A stretch of DNA of 11,307 nucleotides from a virus: the UHGV virus genome UHGV-0356378. The stretch is one strand, 5' to 3'. The translations under genes were made by a program, and so were the position numbers. Under the pieces are notes generated by a model, which saw only the letters and a program-made list of their open reading frames with translations, had not been told where the DNA came from and ran no database searches. Shown piece after piece: positions 313 through 7,744 of the stretch. The number at the start of each line of letters is the position of its first letter. The stretch's first letter is position 1.

Positions 313-387
313 GTCCTCTTAGTTAAATGGATATAACGAGCCCCTCCTAAGGGCTAATTGCAGGTTCGATTCCTGCAGGGGACACCA
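313..387 (+). tRNA. argW: tRNA-Arg, anticodon CCU (reads AGG)
   Basis: A 75-nt cloverleaf can be drawn: acceptor stem GTCCTCT pairing with AGGGGAC (one G-U), anticodon stem CCCCT/AGGGG around loop CCTAA with CCT in anticodon position, T-arm GCAGG-TTCGATT-CCTGC, discriminator A and encoded CCA. The known attachment site of KplE1-type prophages is argW. Confidence 0.9.
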
Positions 388-388
388 T
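373..388. repeat. attL core: 16-bp CTGCAGGGGACACCAT, the 3' end of argW, repeated exactly at 11167-11182
   Basis: Exact 16/16 identity between 373-388 and 11167-11182, with mismatches immediately on both sides of each copy. The integrase gene lies just inside the left copy and the excisionase gene just inside the right copy. Confidence 0.8.
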
Positions 389-482
389 TTATCAGTTCGC
401 TCCCATCCGTACCAGTCCGCAAAATCCCCTGAATATCAAGCCTTCCGTATATTCACAGTTCGTAATGGTTCGCGTCAGATCG

Positions 483-512
483 TTGACAGCCGCACTCCAT
501 GACGGGTAAAAA
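483..512 (+). promoter_or_regulatory. Candidate sigma-70 promoter for the integrase gene: -35 TTGACA (483-488), 17-18 bp spacer, -10 GTAAAA/TAAAAA (506-512)
   Basis: Perfect -35 hexamer with an A/T-rich -10 at correct spacing, 37 bp upstream of the ATG at 549. In KplE1 the intS promoter is reported to lie within attL. Sequence-pattern evidence only. Confidence 0.35.
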
Positions 513-548
513 GTGGATAAAATAATTTTACCCACCGGATTTTTACCC
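504..548. promoter_or_regulatory. Cluster of three GGGTAAAA motifs (504-511 forward; 526-533 and 541-548 as TTTTACCC, i.e. reverse orientation); candidate integrase arm-type or excisionase binding sites
   Basis: The same 8-mer occurs three times within 45 bp directly upstream of the integrase ATG and twice more in tandem at 11088-11109 beside attR. One given 8-mer is expected about 0.35 times in 22.6 kb of two-strand sequence. Confidence 0.4.
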
Positions 549-1706
549 ATGCTCACCGTTAAGCAGATTGAAGCAGCAAAGCCGAAAGAAAAACCATACC
601 GCCTTCTCGATGGTAATGGCCTGTACCTTTATGTTCCTGTATCCGGGAAAAAGGTATGGCAGCTTCGCTACAAGATTGACGGTAAGGAGAAAATCCTGAC
701 CGTCGGAAAATATCCGCTTATGACTTTGCAGGAAGCAAGGGATAAGGCATGGACTGCGAGGAAAGACATCTCGGTTGGCATCGATCCGGTAAAGGCGAAA
801 AAGGCTTCGTCTAACAACAATTCATTTAGTGCGATTTACAAGGAATGGTACGAGCACAAGAAGCAAGTCTGGTCAGTAGGCTATGCAAATGAACTTGCAA
901 AAATGTTTGATGACGACATTTTACCTATCATCGGCGGCCTTGAAATTCAGTATATTGAGCCGATGCAACTGCTGGAAGTAATCCGCAGATTTGAAGATCG
1001 CGGTGCAATGGAGCGAGCAAATAAAGCCCGCAGAAGATGCGGCGAGGTTTTCCGTTACGCTATTGTCACCGGCAGGGCTAAATATAACCCGGCACCTGAC
1101 CTTGCTGACGCCATGAAGGGATACCGCAAGAAGAACTTCCCGTTTCTTCCTGCAGACCAGATCCCGGCATTCAACAAAGCACTGGCAACATTTTCAGGAA
1201 GTATCGTATCGCTCATTGCAACCAAAGTTTTACGCTACACAGCCCTCAGAACAAAAGAACTTCGTTCCATGCTATGGAAGAACGTCGATTTTGAAAACAG
1301 GATTATCACCATCGACGCCAGTGTGATGAAGGGACGCAAAATTCATGTGGTCCCGATGTCAGACCAGGTGGTTGAACTTCTCACTACGCTAAGCTCAATC
1401 ACCAAACCAGTCTCAGAGTTTGTTTTTGCCGGGCGCAACGATAAGAAGAAGCCAATCTGCGAGAACGCGGTATTGCTTGTGATCAAACAAATCGGCTATG
1501 AGGGTCTGGAAAGCGGTCACGGATTCAGGCATGAATTCAGCACGATTATGAACGAGAACGAATGGCCTGCTGATGCTATTGAAATGCAACTGGCACATGC
1601 CAACGGCGGATCTGTGCGCGGTATTTACAACCATGCGCAGTATCTCGATAAGCGCAGAGAAATGATGCAGTGGTGGGCGGACTGGCTTGATGAAAAGCCT
1701 GAGTGA
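549..1706 (+). CDS. intS: P4-type tyrosine integrase with N-terminal arm-DNA-binding domain, 385 aa from the ATG at 549 (the ORF track's 513 start is a GTG 12 codons upstream)
   Basis: N-terminus LTVKQIEAAKPKEKPYRLLDGNGLYLYVPVSGKKVWQLRYKIDGKEK is the typical P4-integrase arm-binding domain. The C-terminal half has tyrosine-recombinase signatures (ALRTKELRS box I arginine, HGFRHEF box II, catalytic Tyr in RGIYNHAQY). It sits directly inside attL at argW. Length and sequence match what I recall of K-12 IntS. Confidence 0.9.
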   Translation: MLTVKQIEAAKPKEKPYRLLDGNGLYLYVPVSGKKVWQLRYKIDGKEKILTVGKYPLMTLQEARDKAWTARKDISVGIDPVKAKKASSNNNSFSAIYKEWYEHKKQVWSVGYANELAKMFDDDILPIIGGLEIQYIEPMQLLEVIRRFEDRGAMERANKARRRCGEVFRYAIVTGRAKYNPAPDLADAMKGYRKKNFPFLPADQIPAFNKALATFSGSIVSLIATKVLRYTALRTKELRSMLWKNVDFENRIITIDASVMKGRKIHVVPMSDQVVELLTTLSSITKPVSEFVFAGRNDKKKPICENAVLLVIKQIGYEGLESGHGFRHEFSTIMNENEWPADAIEMQLAHANGGSVRGIYNHAQYLDKRREMMQWWADWLDEKPE

Positions 1707-1987: not shown

Positions 1988-3331
1988 ATGAGTGATATAG
2001 ACTTTTTTTATTTTATATTTTCAAATTGGTCAGAGTATTTACTGTACGCTACAGTAACAACTGTTTTATGTTACATGACGGTAAGGAAGCTGGCAGTAGG
2101 AGTGATAGATCCAATACACTTCTATTTTACCTTCACATTTGGAACTTCTTACGCAATAGTATTAATGCTATGGAATTACAACTACATTCCTGATCACTTG
2201 TTCTACATGATTATTCTAAACTGGATTGTATTGGCTTCGTTTATGCACTTGGCATATAGAACACCTAAATTTAGACTACTTGGAACAACTGACAAGGTAT
2301 TTAATACATGCAAAAAAAACTCATCAATAATATTCTATTTGTTGCTAATATTTTATATATCACTAACGGTAATATATATAAAAAGTATATCTTTTGATGC
2401 CTTTGTACAGTCTAGGTTTGAGGCAAACAGAGGTCTTGGTGCTATCGTAAGGATACTTGATGTTGTAAGACTGATGCTCACTGGATATCTTTCTGTCATG
2501 GCAGTAAAGTCCAGAGGGTTGAAAAGAGCATCAATAGCACTTATAGCTATAATTATATCTATAATTGCGTCTTTTGTTTCAGGCGCAAAACTTTCTCTCC
2601 TAGAGCATTTGCTAGTTGCTATAATTGCAATTTATATTTTTACAGGTCGTAAACCAAGGCTAACGATAAAAAGTGCGGTTGTTTTTTTAATTATATCCGT
2701 ATCTCTTGTTGCTTATGTGCTATTCCTAATATCATATAATTCAGCAGCAATAGGGTATACAAAATCAAACTACATGGACGCCCCTGTTGTTGTTGAAATG
2801 TTATTCATGCGGATATTTGCAAATGGAGACGCATACTACTTCTCACTCCCAAATGCAGTTATTGACATGTTGCAAGTAAAAAATGCATTTCTACAACTAT
2901 TCGGATATATAGCCGGGAATGGGATAATGCAAAACATGCTTGGATATGACTACTCAGCTAATGATGTTGGCAGAATGATTTGGAAGGTATGGTATCCTGG
3001 GGATGATGTAGCAAGGGGGCCAACAAGTCACTTTGATCTTGCTGGTTATGTTTACTTTGGCTTTGTCGGCGGTTTATTCATGACTGCATTTTTTGGCTGG
3101 ATACTTGGTCGTGTATGTAAAGCAAAAAACATTAGATTAAGAAGCGATATATTCTACTCTTCTTTCATAGCATCTTTCTATTGCAGGGCATTGGCAATAA
3201 TGCTGTCTCCCCCTATAGGCTTGGCATACATGTTTGATAGCATCGTGTTCTTAATTGCCTTGATGATTTTGTCATCTTTCATTTCTATCTTACTTGGACG
3301 CGGAGTTCGATATAAAGTAGAAGTTAGATGA
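1988..3331 (+). CDS. Polytopic integral membrane protein, 447 aa, roughly 10-11 predicted transmembrane helices with one large loop (about residues 265-335); probable surface-polysaccharide (O-antigen) polymerase or modifying enzyme of the Wzy/EpsG/ligase-like kind; function unresolved
   Basis: Long uninterrupted ORF that is visibly very AT-rich (roughly one-third G+C by eye, against about half in the flanking integrase and ejection genes) and rich in Phe/Tyr/Ile/Leu. It occupies the slot between integrase and tailspike where P22-like phages carry conversion genes (gtrABC, oac, neuO). No gtrA or gtrB is adjacent and no acyltransferase-3 signature is visible. Followed by a strong terminator. 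Confidence 0.75.
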   Translation: MSDIDFFYFIFSNWSEYLLYATVTTVLCYMTVRKLAVGVIDPIHFYFTFTFGTSYAIVLMLWNYNYIPDHLFYMIILNWIVLASFMHLAYRTPKFRLLGTTDKVFNTCKKNSSIIFYLLLIFYISLTVIYIKSISFDAFVQSRFEANRGLGAIVRILDVVRLMLTGYLSVMAVKSRGLKRASIALIAIIISIIASFVSGAKLSLLEHLLVAIIAIYIFTGRKPRLTIKSAVVFLIISVSLVAYVLFLISYNSAAIGYTKSNYMDAPVVVEMLFMRIFANGDAYYFSLPNAVIDMLQVKNAFLQLFGYIAGNGIMQNMLGYDYSANDVGRMIWKVWYPGDDVARGPTSHFDLAGYVYFGFVGGLFMTAFFGWILGRVCKAKNIRLRSDIFYSSFIASFYCRALAIMLSPPIGLAYMFDSIVFLIALMILSSFISILLGRGVRYKVEVR

Positions 3332-3336
3332 ATAAT

Positions 3337-3365
3337 GCCAGCCCCGAGATTATCTCGGGGCTGGC
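3337..3365. terminator. Bidirectional intrinsic terminator between the convergent membrane-protein and tailspike genes: 13-bp perfect stem GCCAGCCCCGAGA / TCTCGGGGCTGGC with loop TTA
   Basis: Perfect inverted repeat lying between the stop at 3329-3331 (plus strand) and the stop at 3369-3371 (minus strand), with A/T-rich flanks on both sides. Confidence 0.7.
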
Positions 3366-3368
3366 ATA

Positions 3369-5582
3369 TTAACTACCGTAGTATGCAATTGATCTAGATA
3401 GTAAATCCCAATCCTTTAAATCACTCGGCCCCTGCACAGCAACATTTCCTTTGCATAAATTAACATTGGCTATGATGATGTTTACTTCTTGTGATTTTGG
3501 AAGCGAAAAGGATAAATAAGCATTCGCATCGCTTGCGGACACAAGACCTTCAAAAGGTATTGCTAATGTGAATTTTTTCAACCCCCATGAACTACCAATA
3601 TCAAACTCACCGAATGAATATACTCTTTGAACGCCTAATGATGAAGAATAGCTCAATATCAAGTTCACGGAAATTTTAGTTTGAACAGATGGCAACCCAT
3701 TTACAGCCATGAAAGATAATGTGACTTCTTTCCCTTGACATTTAAAAACATTTTTATCAATAACAACTCGCAGTGTCTTATTATCGGTATTTGCTATTGG
3801 TATCACCACTCCTATAGTTGTACCATCATGATGAAACTGAGAATCTGAGCTAATTTCATTTCTGTAAATATTACAAACAGCAGCTCCATCAGATGTATAC
3901 TGCCAAAAATCAAATACGCGAGAATCCGATGATGTCGTATTAAATGTAAATGAGTTAGATATTCTAGATAACCTACCACTACCATTTATAACAAGATTAT
4001 CTATTGATATAGATGATGTCCAAGTCTCAACCATAGCGTTAAAATCATGAATCTGAACTCCCGGGAAATTAATTTTTTCATATGAGTTACCATAGCTAAT
4101 TTTATTGGTATTGGTTTTTACAAGCACCTGCGTGTTATCGTATGAAAAAAGATCAAGGCAACCAATATGAGTATTTCTCAGAACAACATTACTTCTTCCA
4201 GGTATCATAAACCTACAATTTGTAGTATATCCCTCAGGCCCAGAAGCCACATTATGAGCATTCCAGTAAAGGCCATTACCACCAATCAATCCACCATCAA
4301 AATAATCATCATCTCGAACAACAGTATCACTTGGTGTTCCACCGTATGTTATCAATGCTTCACACTCTGGGTAAATAGTTTCATGGTATCCATTTATTCT
4401 AGGGTTATTGGCAAAAGATCCTAGTTGATGGGTTATTCTCCATCCTTGAGCAACGCCATCAAAACGATAATCAGCCCCTCCTACGTCAATGCACACACCA
4501 CCTGAACGAGTTCCTTCAATATGAAGATAAACATCAGACCCTATATGCAGTCTACTGTTTCCATAGTCAACGGTTCCATCTTTCATTTTGCCATTGGCGC
4601 TTAGCCAGTTTATTGCCTTTGACTTTGCGTAGGAGTGGCGTATGTTGTCTACGGTAATATCCCAGCAATGACCCCAAAGCTTTATCTGATAGTAATCTTC
4701 AGAGCCATAATCAATAAAACGCAAACCGATAATTCTTGGATTGGTTATGTATTCGTTGAAAACGATCCCATCGGAAAAAAGATCTCCAGTAAAAGTAAAT
4801 AAACCGTTTCCTACAAATCCATAAGTTACATGTAGACGGTGGTCTATGCCGCCTTTATCTCCATTAAAAGTAATTCCGTCCGGACCGAATTTTATTTGGT
4901 TGGAGGTACCATTAAATTCAAGTTTAGTGTTTCCTGCACTGGTTAGGATTACAGGTCTTTTGAACCAAAGCGTAGATGAATGCTTGAACCAGCCAGATGG
5001 GAACTCCAGAGTCACTGGCTTGCCATTATGTTCAGTATTGGCAATGCCATTAACGGCAGAAACCACCTGAAGCAACTGATCATCGATCACCATTCCTGGA
5101 GTATAGTCAATATCAATGTAATCAGATACGTAAACAACATCACCATCTCTGCGCTTAATGCCGCCCAACGCCTTCCCTACTGTTGAGTCTCCATACCCGA
5201 CCATCCAAGCTCCAACAATACCAGAGAGATCAGTTCGCAATCTATCTGGATCATACTTCAGCACATTAGGAGAATAGAACTGCTTCGCACCATACGCATC
5301 ATAAACGGCCATTGAATGGCCTTGCACGGTAACGAACTTGGCAATCTGTCCGTTATATACCGGATATCCAGCAGCGTTAATGATGATTGGTTGCGAAACA
5401 GGAACGTGAGAACCGTCTTCATTCTCCACATAAACCTGAATCTGGTTTTCAGGATTTACCGGGTCAGTGTCAATTTTACCGATATAAATTTTACCATTGG
5501 CAACTGCTTTAAAAGAACGCGCCATAGTGAAGAGTTGCGATGGCATACTTACTACAACATTGGCATTTATCGAATCTGTCAT
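3369..5582 (-). CDS. P22-like tailspike, 737 aa: conserved N-terminal head-binding domain (about aa 1-113, nt 5244-5582) fused to a divergent receptor-binding/probable polysaccharide depolymerase domain
   Basis: The N-terminus [98 protein letters not shown]...VLKYDPD is near-collinear with the P22 gp9 head-binding domain as I recall it. Beyond about residue 115 I see no similarity to the P22 receptor domain. A GGAG ribosome-binding site precedes the ATG. The downstream two-thirds is more AT-rich than the 5' end. Confidence 0.9.
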
Positions 5583-5746
5583 TTAATTTGCTCCGGACGT
5601 AGCAATACCGGACAAGATGCAACTTGCCAAGCATTGCACTAATGTCAGTTATTGTTTGTTAATTATGAGATGAGTCTATGCAAAGAGATATGCTGAATAT
5701 TGCGTTCTACATATTTGGTTTTTTCACTTTCCTCGTGTTTGCAAAG

Positions 5747-7744
5747 CTATTCTGACAACGCATCAGACTTAGCCCCCTGCGTCAGAGCGTTAATTGCCTT
5801 TTGTGCCTGCTGCATTGCTTTCTCAAAGGCTGTTGATCCGCGTGGGGTGTTTGCCATTCGGAGCATTGCATTTCTGAATGTTTCGCTCTCATAGGCGCGA
5901 GTAAGAAGTCCGTAGCTTACTGCTGCGCCAGTTGTCGCCGGGTTCATTGCCGTCCCATACCCGATAATGAACGGGATGGTTTGCTGCCCTGTTGGTGTTG
6001 TTACTGCCGCTTTTGCTGCCTGCTGAGTGGACTGAAGGTAATTTTTCAATCCTTTCAGATAAGCAGCGTCCTGCCCCTTAAATGTGATGCCAGTCTGGTT
6101 TTGCAGGGTGTTAAGCTGTCGAAGGAACTGGTCAGGGGAACCACCTGATTTCTCCATCGCCTTTCCAATGATGCCATTGCGCATTTGCGCCCTGCCAATA
6201 CGACCAACTGAGTTATACAGCGTCTTAATTTCCGATTTGTTCTTGCTGAATAGCATGTTGTTGACAACTTCCGGCGTCAGGTCGCCTTTCATGAGAACAT
6301 TCTTCAGCCTGGTATTCTTTAGTTTCGCCGCTTCGTCAGCGTAGACGGCATTGGCCTGCTGATATTTACGGAGAGTATCGTTGCCAAGATTCTGACCAAT
6401 GGCACCATTGATATCGTCTGTCATTGCCTTGTAAACGCGCTGAATGGCAGCATCGGAACGGTTTGGTAACACTGGTCGTTCCCCCTTCACGTCCATTCTG
6501 AACTGGCTGCGCAGATCGCTTAATTGCTTCAAATCCAGATTTACCGGACCATCAGGGCCAGCATTGCGAACAAGCTCATCACGATAGGACTGAAGTTTTG
6601 AAATTGTCTCGTTATCAGCAACCTTACCAAGCTTCTGCAGGTTAGATATTTCTGTATCAATCTGCTGAATTGCTCTTGCAGGCTGAATGTTTATTCCCGC
6701 CATAGCATTCTGAACCTGCTCCAGTCGATTTCCTGCAGCGCGACGAATTCCTGATGTTTTCGCTTTAAGGCTGTCAATAACAACCGCTGGATCATACTCA
6801 CCGAATTTATCAGCAAATCTCTGCACCAACTGGCTTCTCGCTTCCTGTTGCGTTGCTCTCATTCCGCTTGTGCCAGCCAGGGGGATATTTTCTGCTGTCG
6901 TTTGCGCCATTTTTCCGACGCGGGAAGTGGGTTGTAACAGGTCTGTGGTGTGCAGAGGAACACCTTCACGCTCTGCAAATCTGATAGCCTGCTGCGCTTC
7001 TGGCGCAATAGCACCACGAACGCCACGATAAGCAGCACCTAATCCACGCCCGGCAGCGTTAATAGCACCGCCAGCAAGTACACCAACGCCTAAATCGGTG
7101 GCGAGTGCTTCCGCATCATCTTTCGCACTATTTGCAGCAAGTGATCCAACTGCGTTTTCTGCTAGAAGGCGAGTTGCCCCCTGAGCAATTCGACCAGCAA
7201 GTGTTGGTGCCTGTACCGCCGCTCTCTCAACGCCAGCAGGAGTGAGGTAAGGCAATGCTTCAGCAAATACCTTTCCCTCTGTCGTTTGTGGAGTCAGCGC
7301 ACCTTGCTGAAGGCCAAAGTCCTGCTCTAATCCCTGCGTTGTTACTCGTGGTGCTGGTTGATATGTACCATCGCCAATACCGAGTTTACCGCCAGCCCAA
7401 GCCGCCGCGCTTGTTACAGCATCGGCAACTGATGCAGGTATGTTTGCCACGTTCACGCCGGCCTGCACCAGTCCGCGACCAGTCTCTTTTACTGCTTCAC
7501 CAAGATCAGACATAAATCCACTTTGCTGTGGTTGTTGCTGTGCTACTGGTTGTTGTGTCTCCACTGGCTGCACAGATGGCAATGGATAGGCAGCATAGAA
7601 AGCTTGCTTAGCCTGCTCTGCATTTTCTCCGGCTTGCGGGGCAACGACTTCATTGAAGTATTGCTCCTGAGCCTGCGCTTTTTGTTCTGGTGCTAACGCC
7701 TGATACTGTGGAGAGGCGATAACATCTTTCCATGCTTTAGCCAT
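5747..7744 (-). CDS. Ejection (DNA-transfer) protein of the P22 gp16 type, 665 aa
   Basis: Third gene of a gp7-gp20-gp16 set immediately upstream of the tailspike, as in P22-like late operons. Its start overlaps the stop of the upstream gene (TAATG). Ala/Gln-rich low-complexity segments are typical of these proteins. Assignment by synteny and size; P22 gp16 is about 609 aa. Confidence 0.8.
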   Translation of the reverse strand: MAKAWKDVIASPQYQALAPEQKAQAQEQYFNEVVAPQAGENAEQAKQAFYAAYPLPSVQPVETQQPVAQQQPQQSGFMSDLGEAVKETGRGLVQAGVNVANIPASVADAVTSAAAWAGGKLGIGDGTYQPAPRVTTQGLEQDFGLQQGALTPQTTEGKVFAEALPYLTPAGVERAAVQAPTLAGRIAQGATRLLAENAVGSLAANSAKDDAEALATDLGVGVLAGGAINAAGRGLGAAYRGVRGAIAPEAQQAIRFAEREGVPLHTTDLLQPTSRVGKMAQTTAENIPLAGTSGMRATQQEARSQLVQRFADKFGEYDPAVVIDSLKAKTSGIRRAAGNRLEQVQNAMAGINIQPARAIQQIDTEISNLQKLGKVADNETISKLQSYRDELVRNAGPDGPVNLDLKQLSDLRSQFRMDVKGERPVLPNRSDAAIQRVYKAMTDDINGAIGQNLGNDTLRKYQQANAVYADEAAKLKNTRLKNVLMKGDLTPEVVNNMLFSKNKSEIKTLYNSVGRIGRAQMRNGIIGKAMEKSGGSPDQFLRQLNTLQNQTGITFKGQDAAYLKGLKNYLQSTQQAAKAAVTTPTGQQTIPFIIGYGTAMNPATTGAAVSYGLLTRAYESETFRNAMLRMANTPRGSTAFEKAMQQAQKAINALTQGAKSDALSE

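What the first reader, a model, noticed from the sequence alone, without database searches (positions are those of the whole stretch)
504..548. Three GGGTAAAA repeats overlapping the predicted integrase promoter and ribosome-binding region
The motif occurs at 504-511 (forward, overlapping the predicted -10) and as TTTTACCC at 526-533 and 541-548 (the last abutting the ATG at 549). With the two tandem copies at attR that makes five copies of one 8-mer concentrated at the two prophage ends, against a chance expectation of about 0.35 per window. They are strong candidates for arm-type integrase sites or excisionase sites. Their overlap with the integrase promoter offers a mechanism for the autoregulation of intS reported for KplE1. 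I did not scan the rest of the window exhaustively by eye for further copies.
Basis: partly seen in the sequence, partly recalled or inferred. Interest (0 to 1): 0.5.

Follow-up and report, generated by a model that had tools for sequence, protein, structure and literature searches.

The report
Known IntS integrase arm-binding sites
The repeated GGGTAAAA words at both ends of this E. coli prophage remnant are the docking sites for its own integrase, and their overlap with the integrase promoter is the self-repression mechanism already published for prophage KplE1, so this is a correct rediscovery.

Summary
GGGTAAAA occurs exactly five times in the window: 504-511 (+), 526-533 (-), 541-548 (-), 11088-11095 (+) and 11100-11107 (+). 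Chance predicts 0.32.

The window is an argW-integrated HK620/Sf6-type prophage remnant. It carries the KplE1 recombination module: intS, torI and the 16-bp core CTGCAGGGGACACCAT at both ends. Positions 475-560 are base-for-base identical to E. coli K-12.

For that sequence, Panis et al. (PLoS Genet 2010, PMC2951348) reported:
- IntS arm-type P' sites that share TAAA, with P'1 overlapping the -10 box.
- Mapped transcription starts, which fall at window 518/519.
- About 5-fold repression of PintS by IntS.
- TorI (the excisionase) binding elsewhere, to GTTCG-type sites at 395-482.

So the arm-site and autoregulation reading is right, the excisionase alternative is wrong, and nothing here is new.

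Comparison with 30 relatives adds three points:
- The copies are the best-conserved non-coding positions.
- A fourth, degenerate P'-arm copy (GGATAAAA, 515-522) lies on the transcription start. It is a perfect GGGTAAA in many relatives.
- A sister clade has GGGCATA at the same positions, in both arms where both could be read.

Verdict: already known, low interest.

The parts
313..387 (+). argW tRNA-Arg(CCT), the integration target. Its 3' end contains the attL core.
   Evidence: ARAGORN; RefSeq annotation of L001 and L002.
373..388 (+). attL core CTGCAGGGGACACCAT, the crossover region and site of IntS core-type binding.
   Evidence: Exact 16-mer found twice in the window. It is the same 16-nt duplicated core stated for KplE1 in PMC2951348.
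395..482 (+). Five TorI (excisionase/RDF) sites I1-I5, centred on the pentamers GTTCG 395-399, GTCCG 415-419, GTTCG 458-462, GTTCG 468-472 and GATCG 478-482.
   Evidence: Read. The pentamer sequences, the two-block layout and the spacing match PMC2951348 section 8. The GTTCG repeats are conserved in relatives.
483..512 (+). PintS promoter: -35 TTGACA 483-488, 18-nt spacer, -10 TAAAAA 507-512. Transcription starts at T518 and A519.
   Evidence: The -35/-10 sequences and primer-extension start sites are in PMC2951348. Coordinates were converted with ATG = 2464567. The Sf6 record annotates the same stretch as promoter pX. TTGAC is invariant in 31 of 31 relatives.
504..511 (+). P'-arm IntS arm-type site 1 (GGGTAAAA), overlapping the -10 box. 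It corresponds to published P'1.
   Evidence: Column identity is 1.00 in 17 diverged relatives. PMC2951348 states that P'1 overlaps the -10 box and shares TAAA.
515..522 (+). P'-arm degenerate direct copy (GGATAAAA), 11 bp after site 1 and covering the transcription start.
   Evidence: One-mismatch search. It is a perfect GGGTAAA in L016-L019, L021-L027 and L033, and always 11-12 bp (11 in all but L035) after site 1. The HK620 GenBank repeat_region that maps to window 503-524 spans sites 1 and 2.
526..533 (-). P'-arm IntS arm-type site 3 (TTTTACCC on the + strand), inverted, in the transcribed leader (+8 to +15).
   Evidence: Column identity is 0.98. It is absent from the short-leader Xenorhabdus relatives L023 and L025.
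541..548 (-). P'-arm IntS arm-type site 4 (TTTTACCC), inverted, filling the gap between the GGA ribosome-binding site (537-539) and the ATG.
   Evidence: Column identity is 0.975. An inverted copy lies 7-9 nt before the ATG in 31 of 31 relatives. The RBS is annotated in Sf6 record X59553.
549..1706 (+). intS, a heterobivalent tyrosine integrase: Arm-DNA-bind_3 at residues 2-86, central domain at 93-188, catalytic domain at 199-365.
   Evidence: Pfam; RefSeq 'prophage integrase IntS'; central domain matches PDB 2KJ8, CPS-53 integrase.
10893..11093 (+). torI, the excisionase (RDF). Its last sense codon and stop codon (GGG TAA) lie inside P-arm site P1.
   Evidence: ORF list. Same protein accession WP_001163428.1 as K-12 TorI. 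Matches PDB 1Z4H. Sequence read.
11088..11107 (+). P-arm pair of IntS arm-type sites, GGGTAAAA at 11088-11095 and 11100-11107 (12-bp spacing), 60-79 bp from the attR core.
   Evidence: Identical in K-12 and HK620. Conserved as G(G/A)GTAAA in Klebsiella and Erwinia phages and replaced by GGGCATA twice in phage Emek. HK620 annotates the stretch as an attP repeat.
11167..11182 (+). attR core CTGCAGGGGACACCAT.

Best explanation
The GGGTAAA(A) copies are the arm-type binding sites of the IntS integrase in a KplE1/HK620/Sf6-type recombination module integrated in argW.

IntS is a heterobivalent tyrosine recombinase. Its catalytic domain works on the 16-bp core CTGCAGGGGACACCAT. Its N-terminal arm-binding domain (residues 2-86) docks on the GGGTAAA words. 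Two direct copies lie in the P arm (attR, 11088-11107). The P' arm (attL) holds two direct copies (504-511 and the degenerate 515-522) followed by two inverted copies (526-533, 541-548). Bridging arm and core sites, together with TorI on the GTTCG sites (395-482) and IHF, builds the intasome for excision and integration.

intS is read outward from attL, so the P' sites coincide with its promoter. Site 1 covers the -10 box. Site 2 covers the transcription start (518/519). Sites 3 and 4 lie in the 30-nt leader. Bound IntS therefore excludes or blocks RNA polymerase and holds intS at a low, constant level (about 5-fold repression).

What is shown in the literature for the identical K-12 sequence: the P' arm sites share TAAA, P'1 overlaps the -10 box, the transcription starts, and repression by IntS and by TorI.

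What is shown here: the sequence identity, the site geometry, the conservation and the concerted change in a sister clade.

What is inferred: that each of the individual copies, especially 515-522, is occupied, and which copies carry the repression.
For: 1. Five exact copies against 0.32 expected, all within the two att arms.
2. Window 475-560 is identical to K-12 KplE1 attL, and the attR pair is identical too. TorI is the same protein accession as in K-12.
3. PMC2951348 reports IntS arm-type P' sites sharing TAAA, P'1 overlapping the -10 box TAaAAa, -35 TTGACA, mapped transcription starts, about 5-fold repression by IntS, and TorI acting through GTTCG-type sites I4/I5.
4. All copies lie within the att fragments used as substrates for in vitro excision. 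The published primers map to window 353-572 and about 11070-11206.
5. IntS has Pfam Arm-DNA-bind_3 at residues 2-86 (E = 2e-25).
6. Phylogenetic footprint: among 17 relatives diverged to about 64% identity in neighbouring non-coding DNA, the copies score 1.00, 0.98 and 0.975 column identity, equal to the -35 box. The spacers score 0.75-0.85.
7. The geometry is fixed in 31 of 31 sequences: -35, then site 1 at +21, then site 2 11-12 bp further on (11 in all but L035), then the inverted copy or copies, the last one 7-9 nt before the ATG.
8. Concerted switch: a sister clade (L020, L028-L031, L035, phage Emek) carries GGGCATA at the same P' positions. In Emek, the only member whose P arm could be read, both P-arm sites are also GGGCATA. 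Several arm-domain residues differ between the clades, for example Q38R.
9. The HK620 GenBank record already marks these stretches as attP repeats.
Against: I could not read the two papers that mapped the sites by footprinting and mutagenesis (J Biol Chem 2007, pmid 17545146; Virology 2010, pmid 20494389). The one-to-one assignment of published P1, P2 and P'1-P'n to my coordinates therefore rests on three things: the text statements (TAAA shared, P'1 on the -10 box), sequence identity and geometry.

In PMC2951348, single mutations of P' sites other than P'1 did not relieve repression. P'1 could not be separated from promoter function. So which copy or copies mediate repression is not settled experimentally.

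The link between arm-domain residues and site type is confounded by phylogeny, because only two clades are compared.
Confidence: 0.93

Rival explanations
1. The copies are binding sites for the excisionase TorI (the RDF) rather than for the integrase.
For: RDF sites are typically short direct repeats about one helical turn apart. The 11-12 bp spacing of the direct pairs (504/515 and 11088/11100) fits that pattern.
Against: PMC2951348 identifies the TorI sites as GTTCG, GTCCG and GATCG, mutated to CAAGC, in two blocks. These map to window 395-419 and 458-482. TorI repression is lost when I4 or I5 is mutated. Those pentamers are separately conserved in relatives. The same paper labels the TAAA-containing sites as IntS arm-type sites.
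Confidence: 0.03
2. The copies are conserved only as promoter and translation signals (-10 box, start region, leader, spacer before the ATG), and the repetition is a by-product of A/T-rich regulatory sequence.
For: Site 1 overlaps the -10 box and site 4 sits between the GGA ribosome-binding site and the ATG. Any mutation of P'1 that altered IntS binding also reduced promoter activity.
Against: This does not explain the two copies at the other prophage end, 10.5 kb away and overlapping the torI stop codon. It does not explain the inverted orientation of sites 3 and 4. It does not explain the replacement of the sites by GGGCATA in a sister clade, including both P-arm sites in phage Emek.
Confidence: 0.02
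3. The copies are sites for a host nucleoid protein (IHF or Fis) that bends the att arms.
For: Host bending proteins do take part in intasome assembly, and IHF is used in the KplE1 in vitro reaction.
Against: GGGTAAA does not resemble the IHF consensus (my knowledge of WATCAANNNNTTR). The sites switch to GGGCATA together with the integrase clade in Salmonella, Kluyvera and Pantoea elements, whose host IHF and Fis are essentially the same as in E. coli. The published map assigns them to IntS.
Confidence: 0.02

Closest known systems
KplE1 (CPS-53) prophage of E. coli K-12: IntS arm-type sites P1, P2 (attR) and P' sites (attL) and the autoregulated PintS promoter (Panis et al. 2007, 2010)
   Same: Same integration site (argW), same 16-bp core and identical TorI. 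IntS is about 99% identical. The sequence from the -35 box to the ATG is identical, and so is the attR repeat pair. The published description fits exactly: TAAA-containing arm sites, P'1 on the -10 box, repression by IntS.
   Different: Only the cargo between the ends differs. Here it is an O-antigen polymerase, a tailspike and ejection proteins, instead of K-12's yfdG-yfdT genes. A few substitutions lie in the TorI-site region at 445-474.
attP of phages HK620, Sf6 and CUS-3 (Lederbergvirus)
   Same: 97-99% identical over 374-620. The HK620 record annotates attP repeat regions that map to window 11087-11109, 503-524 and 524-549. The Sf6 record annotates promoter pX over window 482-511.
   Different: In the phage the two arms are joined in one attP. 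Here they are split into attL and attR of a decayed prophage.
Phage lambda attP arm-type sites (P1, P2, P'1-P'3) bound by the Int N-terminal domain
   Same: The same logic applies: a heterobivalent integrase, a short motif repeated in both arms, and an RDF and IHF as architectural partners. This is established knowledge and is summarised in PMC2951348.
   Different: The motif, number, spacing and orientation of the sites differ. The arm-domain family differs too (Pfam Arm-DNA-bind_3 here). Lambda int is not transcribed from a promoter inside attL, so its arm sites do not act as operators.
Satellite phage P4 integrase autoregulation
   Same: The integrase binds at its own promoter and represses it, and the RDF (Vis) also lowers Int. 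PMC2951348 cites this as the only other documented case.
   Different: Vis is proposed to act on the mRNA, whereas TorI acts on DNA next to the -35 box. The sequences are unrelated.

Membership tests
Arm-type sites of a heterobivalent tyrosine integrase | A short motif repeated several times in both arms of attP (at both prophage ends), outside the crossover core | tested here: met
   Five exact copies plus one degenerate copy lie at 504-548 and 11088-11107, 116-160 bp and 60-79 bp from the cores. None occurs elsewhere in the window.
Arm-type sites of a heterobivalent tyrosine integrase | The cognate integrase has a separate N-terminal arm DNA-binding domain | tested here: met
   Pfam PF13356 Arm-DNA-bind_3 at residues 2-86, 89 bits against a cutoff of 27. 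Related isolated domains are solved as PDB 3JU0 and 3JTZ.
Arm-type sites of a heterobivalent tyrosine integrase | The motif is distinct from the core-type sequence | tested here: met
   The core CTGCAGGGGACACCAT contains no GGGTAAA.
Arm-type sites of a heterobivalent tyrosine integrase | The sites lie inside att fragments that are functional recombination substrates | tested here: met
   The published in vitro attL (220 bp) and attR (135 bp) primers map to window 353-572 and about 11070-11206. These fragments include every copy.
Arm-type sites of a heterobivalent tyrosine integrase | The sites change together with the integrase lineage | tested here: met
   GGGTAAA is replaced by GGGCATA at the same P' positions in a sister clade, and at both P-arm sites in phage Emek, the only member whose P arm was read. 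Clade-specific arm-domain residues accompany the change. Only two clades are compared, so phylogeny confounds the result.
Arm-type sites of a heterobivalent tyrosine integrase | Direct protection or binding by the integrase (footprint, EMSA) | not testable with these tools
   PMC2951348 says this was 'previously characterized' for KplE1 attL, citing J Biol Chem 2007. That paper is not held.
KplE1/HK620/Sf6 argW recombination module | Integration in argW with the duplicated 16-nt core, intS at one end reading outward from attL, and torI at the other end | tested here: met
   The core is as stated in PMC2951348.
KplE1/HK620/Sf6 argW recombination module | Near-identity of attL, attR, IntS and TorI to the reference elements | tested here: met
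   attL is 99% identical to K-12 and 100% identical over 475-560. attR is 98% identical. The same TorI accession is annotated in both genomes. HK620 and Sf6 are 97-98% identical.
Negatively autoregulated integrase promoter overlapping attL | A promoter between the core and int, with an integrase site on the -10 box or the transcription start | tested here: met
   TTGACA at 483-488 and TAAAAA at 507-512. Site 1 at 504-511 is on the -10 box, and site 2 at 515-522 is on the start at 518/519.
Negatively autoregulated integrase promoter overlapping attL | Lower promoter activity when the integrase is present | not testable with these tools
   Published for the identical K-12 sequence: 6368 against 1270 units, a ratio of about 5.
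TorI (RDF) binding sites | GTTCG-like pentamer repeats that TorI needs for binding and repression | tested here: not met
   GGGTAAAA contains no GTTCG-like pentamer. The TorI pentamers are separate, at 395-482.

The most novel reading that the evidence does not exclude
The P' arm may contain four integrase sites, not three. They would be arranged as a conserved direct pair 11 bp apart (504-510 and 515-521) followed by an inverted pair. The degenerate second copy lies exactly on the intS transcription start. If the published map omits it, it could supply the redundancy that explains why single P' mutations did not relieve repression.

Separately, the family splits into two natural specificity classes, GGGTAAA and GGGCATA, with matching changes in the arm-binding domain such as Q38R. 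That offers a ready-made specificity-swap experiment.
Probability: 0.3. Interest if true: 0.25.

Novelty: already known. Interest (0 to 1): 0.1.

Why it matters
It matters little beyond confirming that the scan can recover real regulatory DNA from sequence alone. These sites and their double role, intasome assembly and self-repression of the integrase gene, were worked out experimentally for KplE1 in 2007-2010 and were annotated as attP repeats in phage HK620 in 2001.

The comparative data here add modest value. They show that the site layout is fixed across Enterobacterales elements. They show that a fourth copy sits on the transcription start. They also show that a sister clade has switched its sites to GGGCATA at the same positions. 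This could guide experiments on arm-site specificity and on which copies carry the repression.

Tried and rejected
1. I tried to read the primary mapping papers (J Biol Chem 2007, doi 10.1074/jbc.M701827200; Virology 2010). They are not held. The supplements of PMC2951348 contain no primer or site sequences. Three further literature searches found no text giving the site coordinates.

2. The consensus promoter scan missed the experimentally proven promoter, because its -10 box TAAAAA lacks the final T the scan requires. It reported ATGACG-16-AATAAT (499-526) instead. That is the promoter guessed in the 1991 Sf6 record X59553. I rejected it as the main promoter because the mapped starts (518/519) fit TTGACA/TAAAAA.

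3. The coordinates the paper gives for the TorI blocks fit the window with an offset of either 2464016 or 2464018. I fixed the offset at 2464018 from the statement '-223..+64 = 2464344..2464630', and I report the pentamers themselves rather than 8-bp boxes.

4. I rejected the one-mismatch copies elsewhere (645, 919, 1228, 2125, 4369, 5474, 5489, 10958, 11289). Their number matches chance, and the copy at 10958 is not conserved as a motif in relatives.

5. I rejected the GTG at 513 as the intS start, because it lies upstream of the transcription start.

6. The excisionase-site, promoter-only and host-factor readings are rejected under the rival explanations.

Full report
**Observation.** An exact search finds GGGTAAAA five times in the 11,307-base window: 504-511 (+), 526-533 (-), 541-548 (-), 11088-11095 (+) and 11100-11107 (+). 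Dinucleotide-preserving shuffles give a mean of 0.32, and none of 200 reached five. With one mismatch allowed, the total (15) is close to chance (9.06). One extra copy, GGATAAAA at 515-522 (+), lies inside the cluster. The word is not rare in itself, since it occurs twice in the 12 kb of chromosome left of argW. The signal is the clustering.

**Context.** The window runs as follows:
- The 3' end of yfdC.
- tRNA-Arg(CCT) argW at 313-387.
- intS (549-1706).
- An O-antigen polymerase, a tailspike and three ejection/transfer proteins.
- A few small ORFs, then torI (10893-11093).
- The start of the dsdC side.

It is 100% identical to E. coli FDAARGOS_1248 over the query used. The 16-bp core CTGCAGGGGACACCAT occurs at 373-388 and 11167-11182. 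This is the duplicated core given for prophage KplE1 (PMC2951348). The K-12 element has the same ends but different cargo. TorI is the same protein accession in both and matches PDB 1Z4H. Window 370-560 differs from K-12 at five positions, all upstream of 475. From the last TorI site to beyond the ATG the two are identical. The attR segment with the two copies is identical too. Of 5,426 complete E. coli genomes, 1,869 carry this attL-intS junction. HK620, Sf6, CUS-3 and other Lederbergvirus phages carry it at 97-99% identity.

**What the literature says about this sequence.** Panis et al. (PLoS Genet 2010, PMC2951348) report the following for KplE1 attL:
- The promoter has -35 TTGACA and -10 TAaAAa.
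- Primer-extension starts fall at a T and an A. With the ATG at 2464567 these are window T518 and A519.
- There are five TorI sites in two blocks, with pentamers GTTCG, GTCCG and GATCG. In the window these are at 395-399, 415-419, 458-462, 468-472 and 478-482.
- The IntS arm-type P' sites all contain TAAA, and P'1 overlaps the -10 box.
- IntS represses a PintS-gfp fusion about 5-fold, and so does TorI, which acts through I4/I5.
- The authors conclude that the integrase regulates its own expression by binding to the promoter close to the -10 box.

The att fragments they use for in vitro excision map to window 353-572 and about 11070-11206, and include every copy. The HK620 GenBank record marks attP repeat regions that correspond to window 11087-11109, 503-524 and 524-549. 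The Sf6 record marks promoter pX over window 482-511. The alternative, excisionase sites, is contradicted by the published TorI sites.

**Independent evidence gathered here.**
- IntS has the three-domain architecture of a heterobivalent integrase, with Pfam Arm-DNA-bind_3 at residues 2-86.
- I joined the window's P arm and P' arm into a virtual attP. I aligned it with HK620, two Klebsiella phages, two Erwinia phages and Salmonella phage Emek (70-79% DNA identity for the distant ones). GGGTAAA is kept at all five positions in the first group.
- A scan of one genome per species returned 80 loci with IntS relatives. In the 30 relatives examined (24 of these loci plus the six phages, 58-99% protein identity) and in the window itself, the geometry is fixed. 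The TTGAC of the -35 box is followed 21 bp later by a direct copy, 11-12 bp later (11 in all but L035) by a second direct copy, and then by one or two inverted copies. The last inverted copy lies 7-9 nt before the ATG.
- Among 17 diverged GGGTAAA-type sequences, column identity is 1.00, 0.98 and 0.975 for the three exact copies and 1.00 for the -35 box. It is 0.78 for the second direct copy, 0.75-0.85 for the gaps between them and 0.64 for upstream non-coding DNA.
- The second direct copy (window 515-522, GGATAAAA) is a perfect GGGTAAA in L016-L019, L021-L027 and L033.
- A sister clade (L020, L028-L031, L035, phage Emek) has GGGCATA at the same P' positions. In Emek, the only member whose P arm I could read, both P-arm sites are GGGCATA as well. 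Several arm-domain residues separate the two clades, for example Q38R. Because only two clades are compared, this last point is confounded by phylogeny.

**Mechanism.**
- Shown in the literature: IntS and TorI each repress PintS, P'1 lies on the -10 box, and the sites belong to the recombination substrates.
- Shown here: the window carries the identical DNA, and the sites are the most constrained non-coding positions. They switch as a set at the P' positions of the sister clade, and in both arms of Emek, the one member whose P arm could be read.
- Inferred: the IntS arm domain occupies the direct pair on the -10 box and the transcription start, and the inverted pair in the 30-nt leader. This blocks RNA polymerase and keeps IntS low and constant. 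The same contacts, together with the P-arm pair, TorI and IHF, assemble the excisive intasome.
- Unresolved even in the literature: which P' copies carry the repression. Single mutants other than P'1 had no effect, and P'1 could not be separated from the promoter.

**Limits.** I could not read the two papers that mapped the sites. The assignment of published site names to my coordinates is therefore inferred from text statements, sequence identity and geometry. I recall three P' sites in the published figures, but I could not verify that number. Whether 515-522 is already part of the published map is thus open.

**Verdict.** This is a rediscovery of a characterised system, so it is already known and of low interest. 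The residual novelty is the fourth site on the transcription start and the two specificity classes, and it is modest and uncertain.

Noticed in passing
window 10858-10873: A 16-nt exact copy of the argW T-arm (TTGCAGGTTCGATTCC, tRNA positions 358-373) lies 20-35 bp upstream of the torI start. The box GGTTCGATTCCC is also found upstream of the RDF gene in K-12, HK620, Erwinia phage Midgardsormr38 (two tandem copies) and, as AAGTTCGATTCCC, in Salmonella phage Emek. It is absent in the Klebsiella phages and in EhrS49. It contains the TorI pentamer GTTCG. The HK620 and Sf6 records annotate the stretch as promoter pI with a cII site. It could be a TorI operator on its own uncharacterised promoter, or a relic of a longer tRNA-derived att site.
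   Followed up: partly
window 1988-10750: The cargo is not that of K-12 KplE1. It comprises an O-antigen polymerase (1988-3331), a tailspike with a head-binding domain (3369-5582, -), three P22-type ejection/transfer proteins (5747-9873, -), a truncated DUF2824 gene, an ASCH-domain protein and a small ORF. It looks like an HK620/Sf6-like prophage that has lost everything except the recombination module and the tail/ejection end (RefSeq annotation of L001).
   Followed up: no
L020, L028-L031, L035 (about 930-1003) and L006 (Emek) 500-780: A sister clade of IntS-like integrases (58-72% identity) keeps the same promoter and site geometry but with GGGCATA instead of GGGTAAA. The RDF-site region also differs: the GTTCG repeats are replaced by other short repeats such as GTTACCC or (C/G)GAACC. 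This suggests that both DNA specificities of the module have diverged together.
   Followed up: partly
L023 and L025 (Xenorhabdus) about 950-1003: These relatives have a leader 14-15 nt shorter and only one inverted copy (three P' sites in all). The second inverted copy is therefore dispensable in some members.
   Followed up: no
window 11088-11093: The first P-arm site overlaps the last sense codon and stop codon of torI (GGG TAA). The end of the excisionase gene and an integrase docking site share the same bases.
   Followed up: yes
window 499-526: A second promoter-like match (ATGACG, 16 nt, AATAAT) lies inside the site cluster. It is the promoter annotated in the 1991 Sf6 record X59553. 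The KplE1 primer extension gave no start that fits it.
   Followed up: partly
L015 (CAWCSS010000004.1, 1-2310): An integrase 81% identical to IntS sits at the very end of a 245-kb contig of a MAG labelled Solirubrobacteraceae (Actinomycetota). This is an unexpected host for an enterobacterial-type module, and may reflect a binning or labelling error.
   Followed up: no
window 917-927: The HK620 record also marks an 11-bp attP repeat inside int. It maps here to a one-mismatch copy (AGGTAAAA on the minus strand, 919-926). It lies in coding sequence, and I could not separate its conservation from that of the protein.
   Followed up: no
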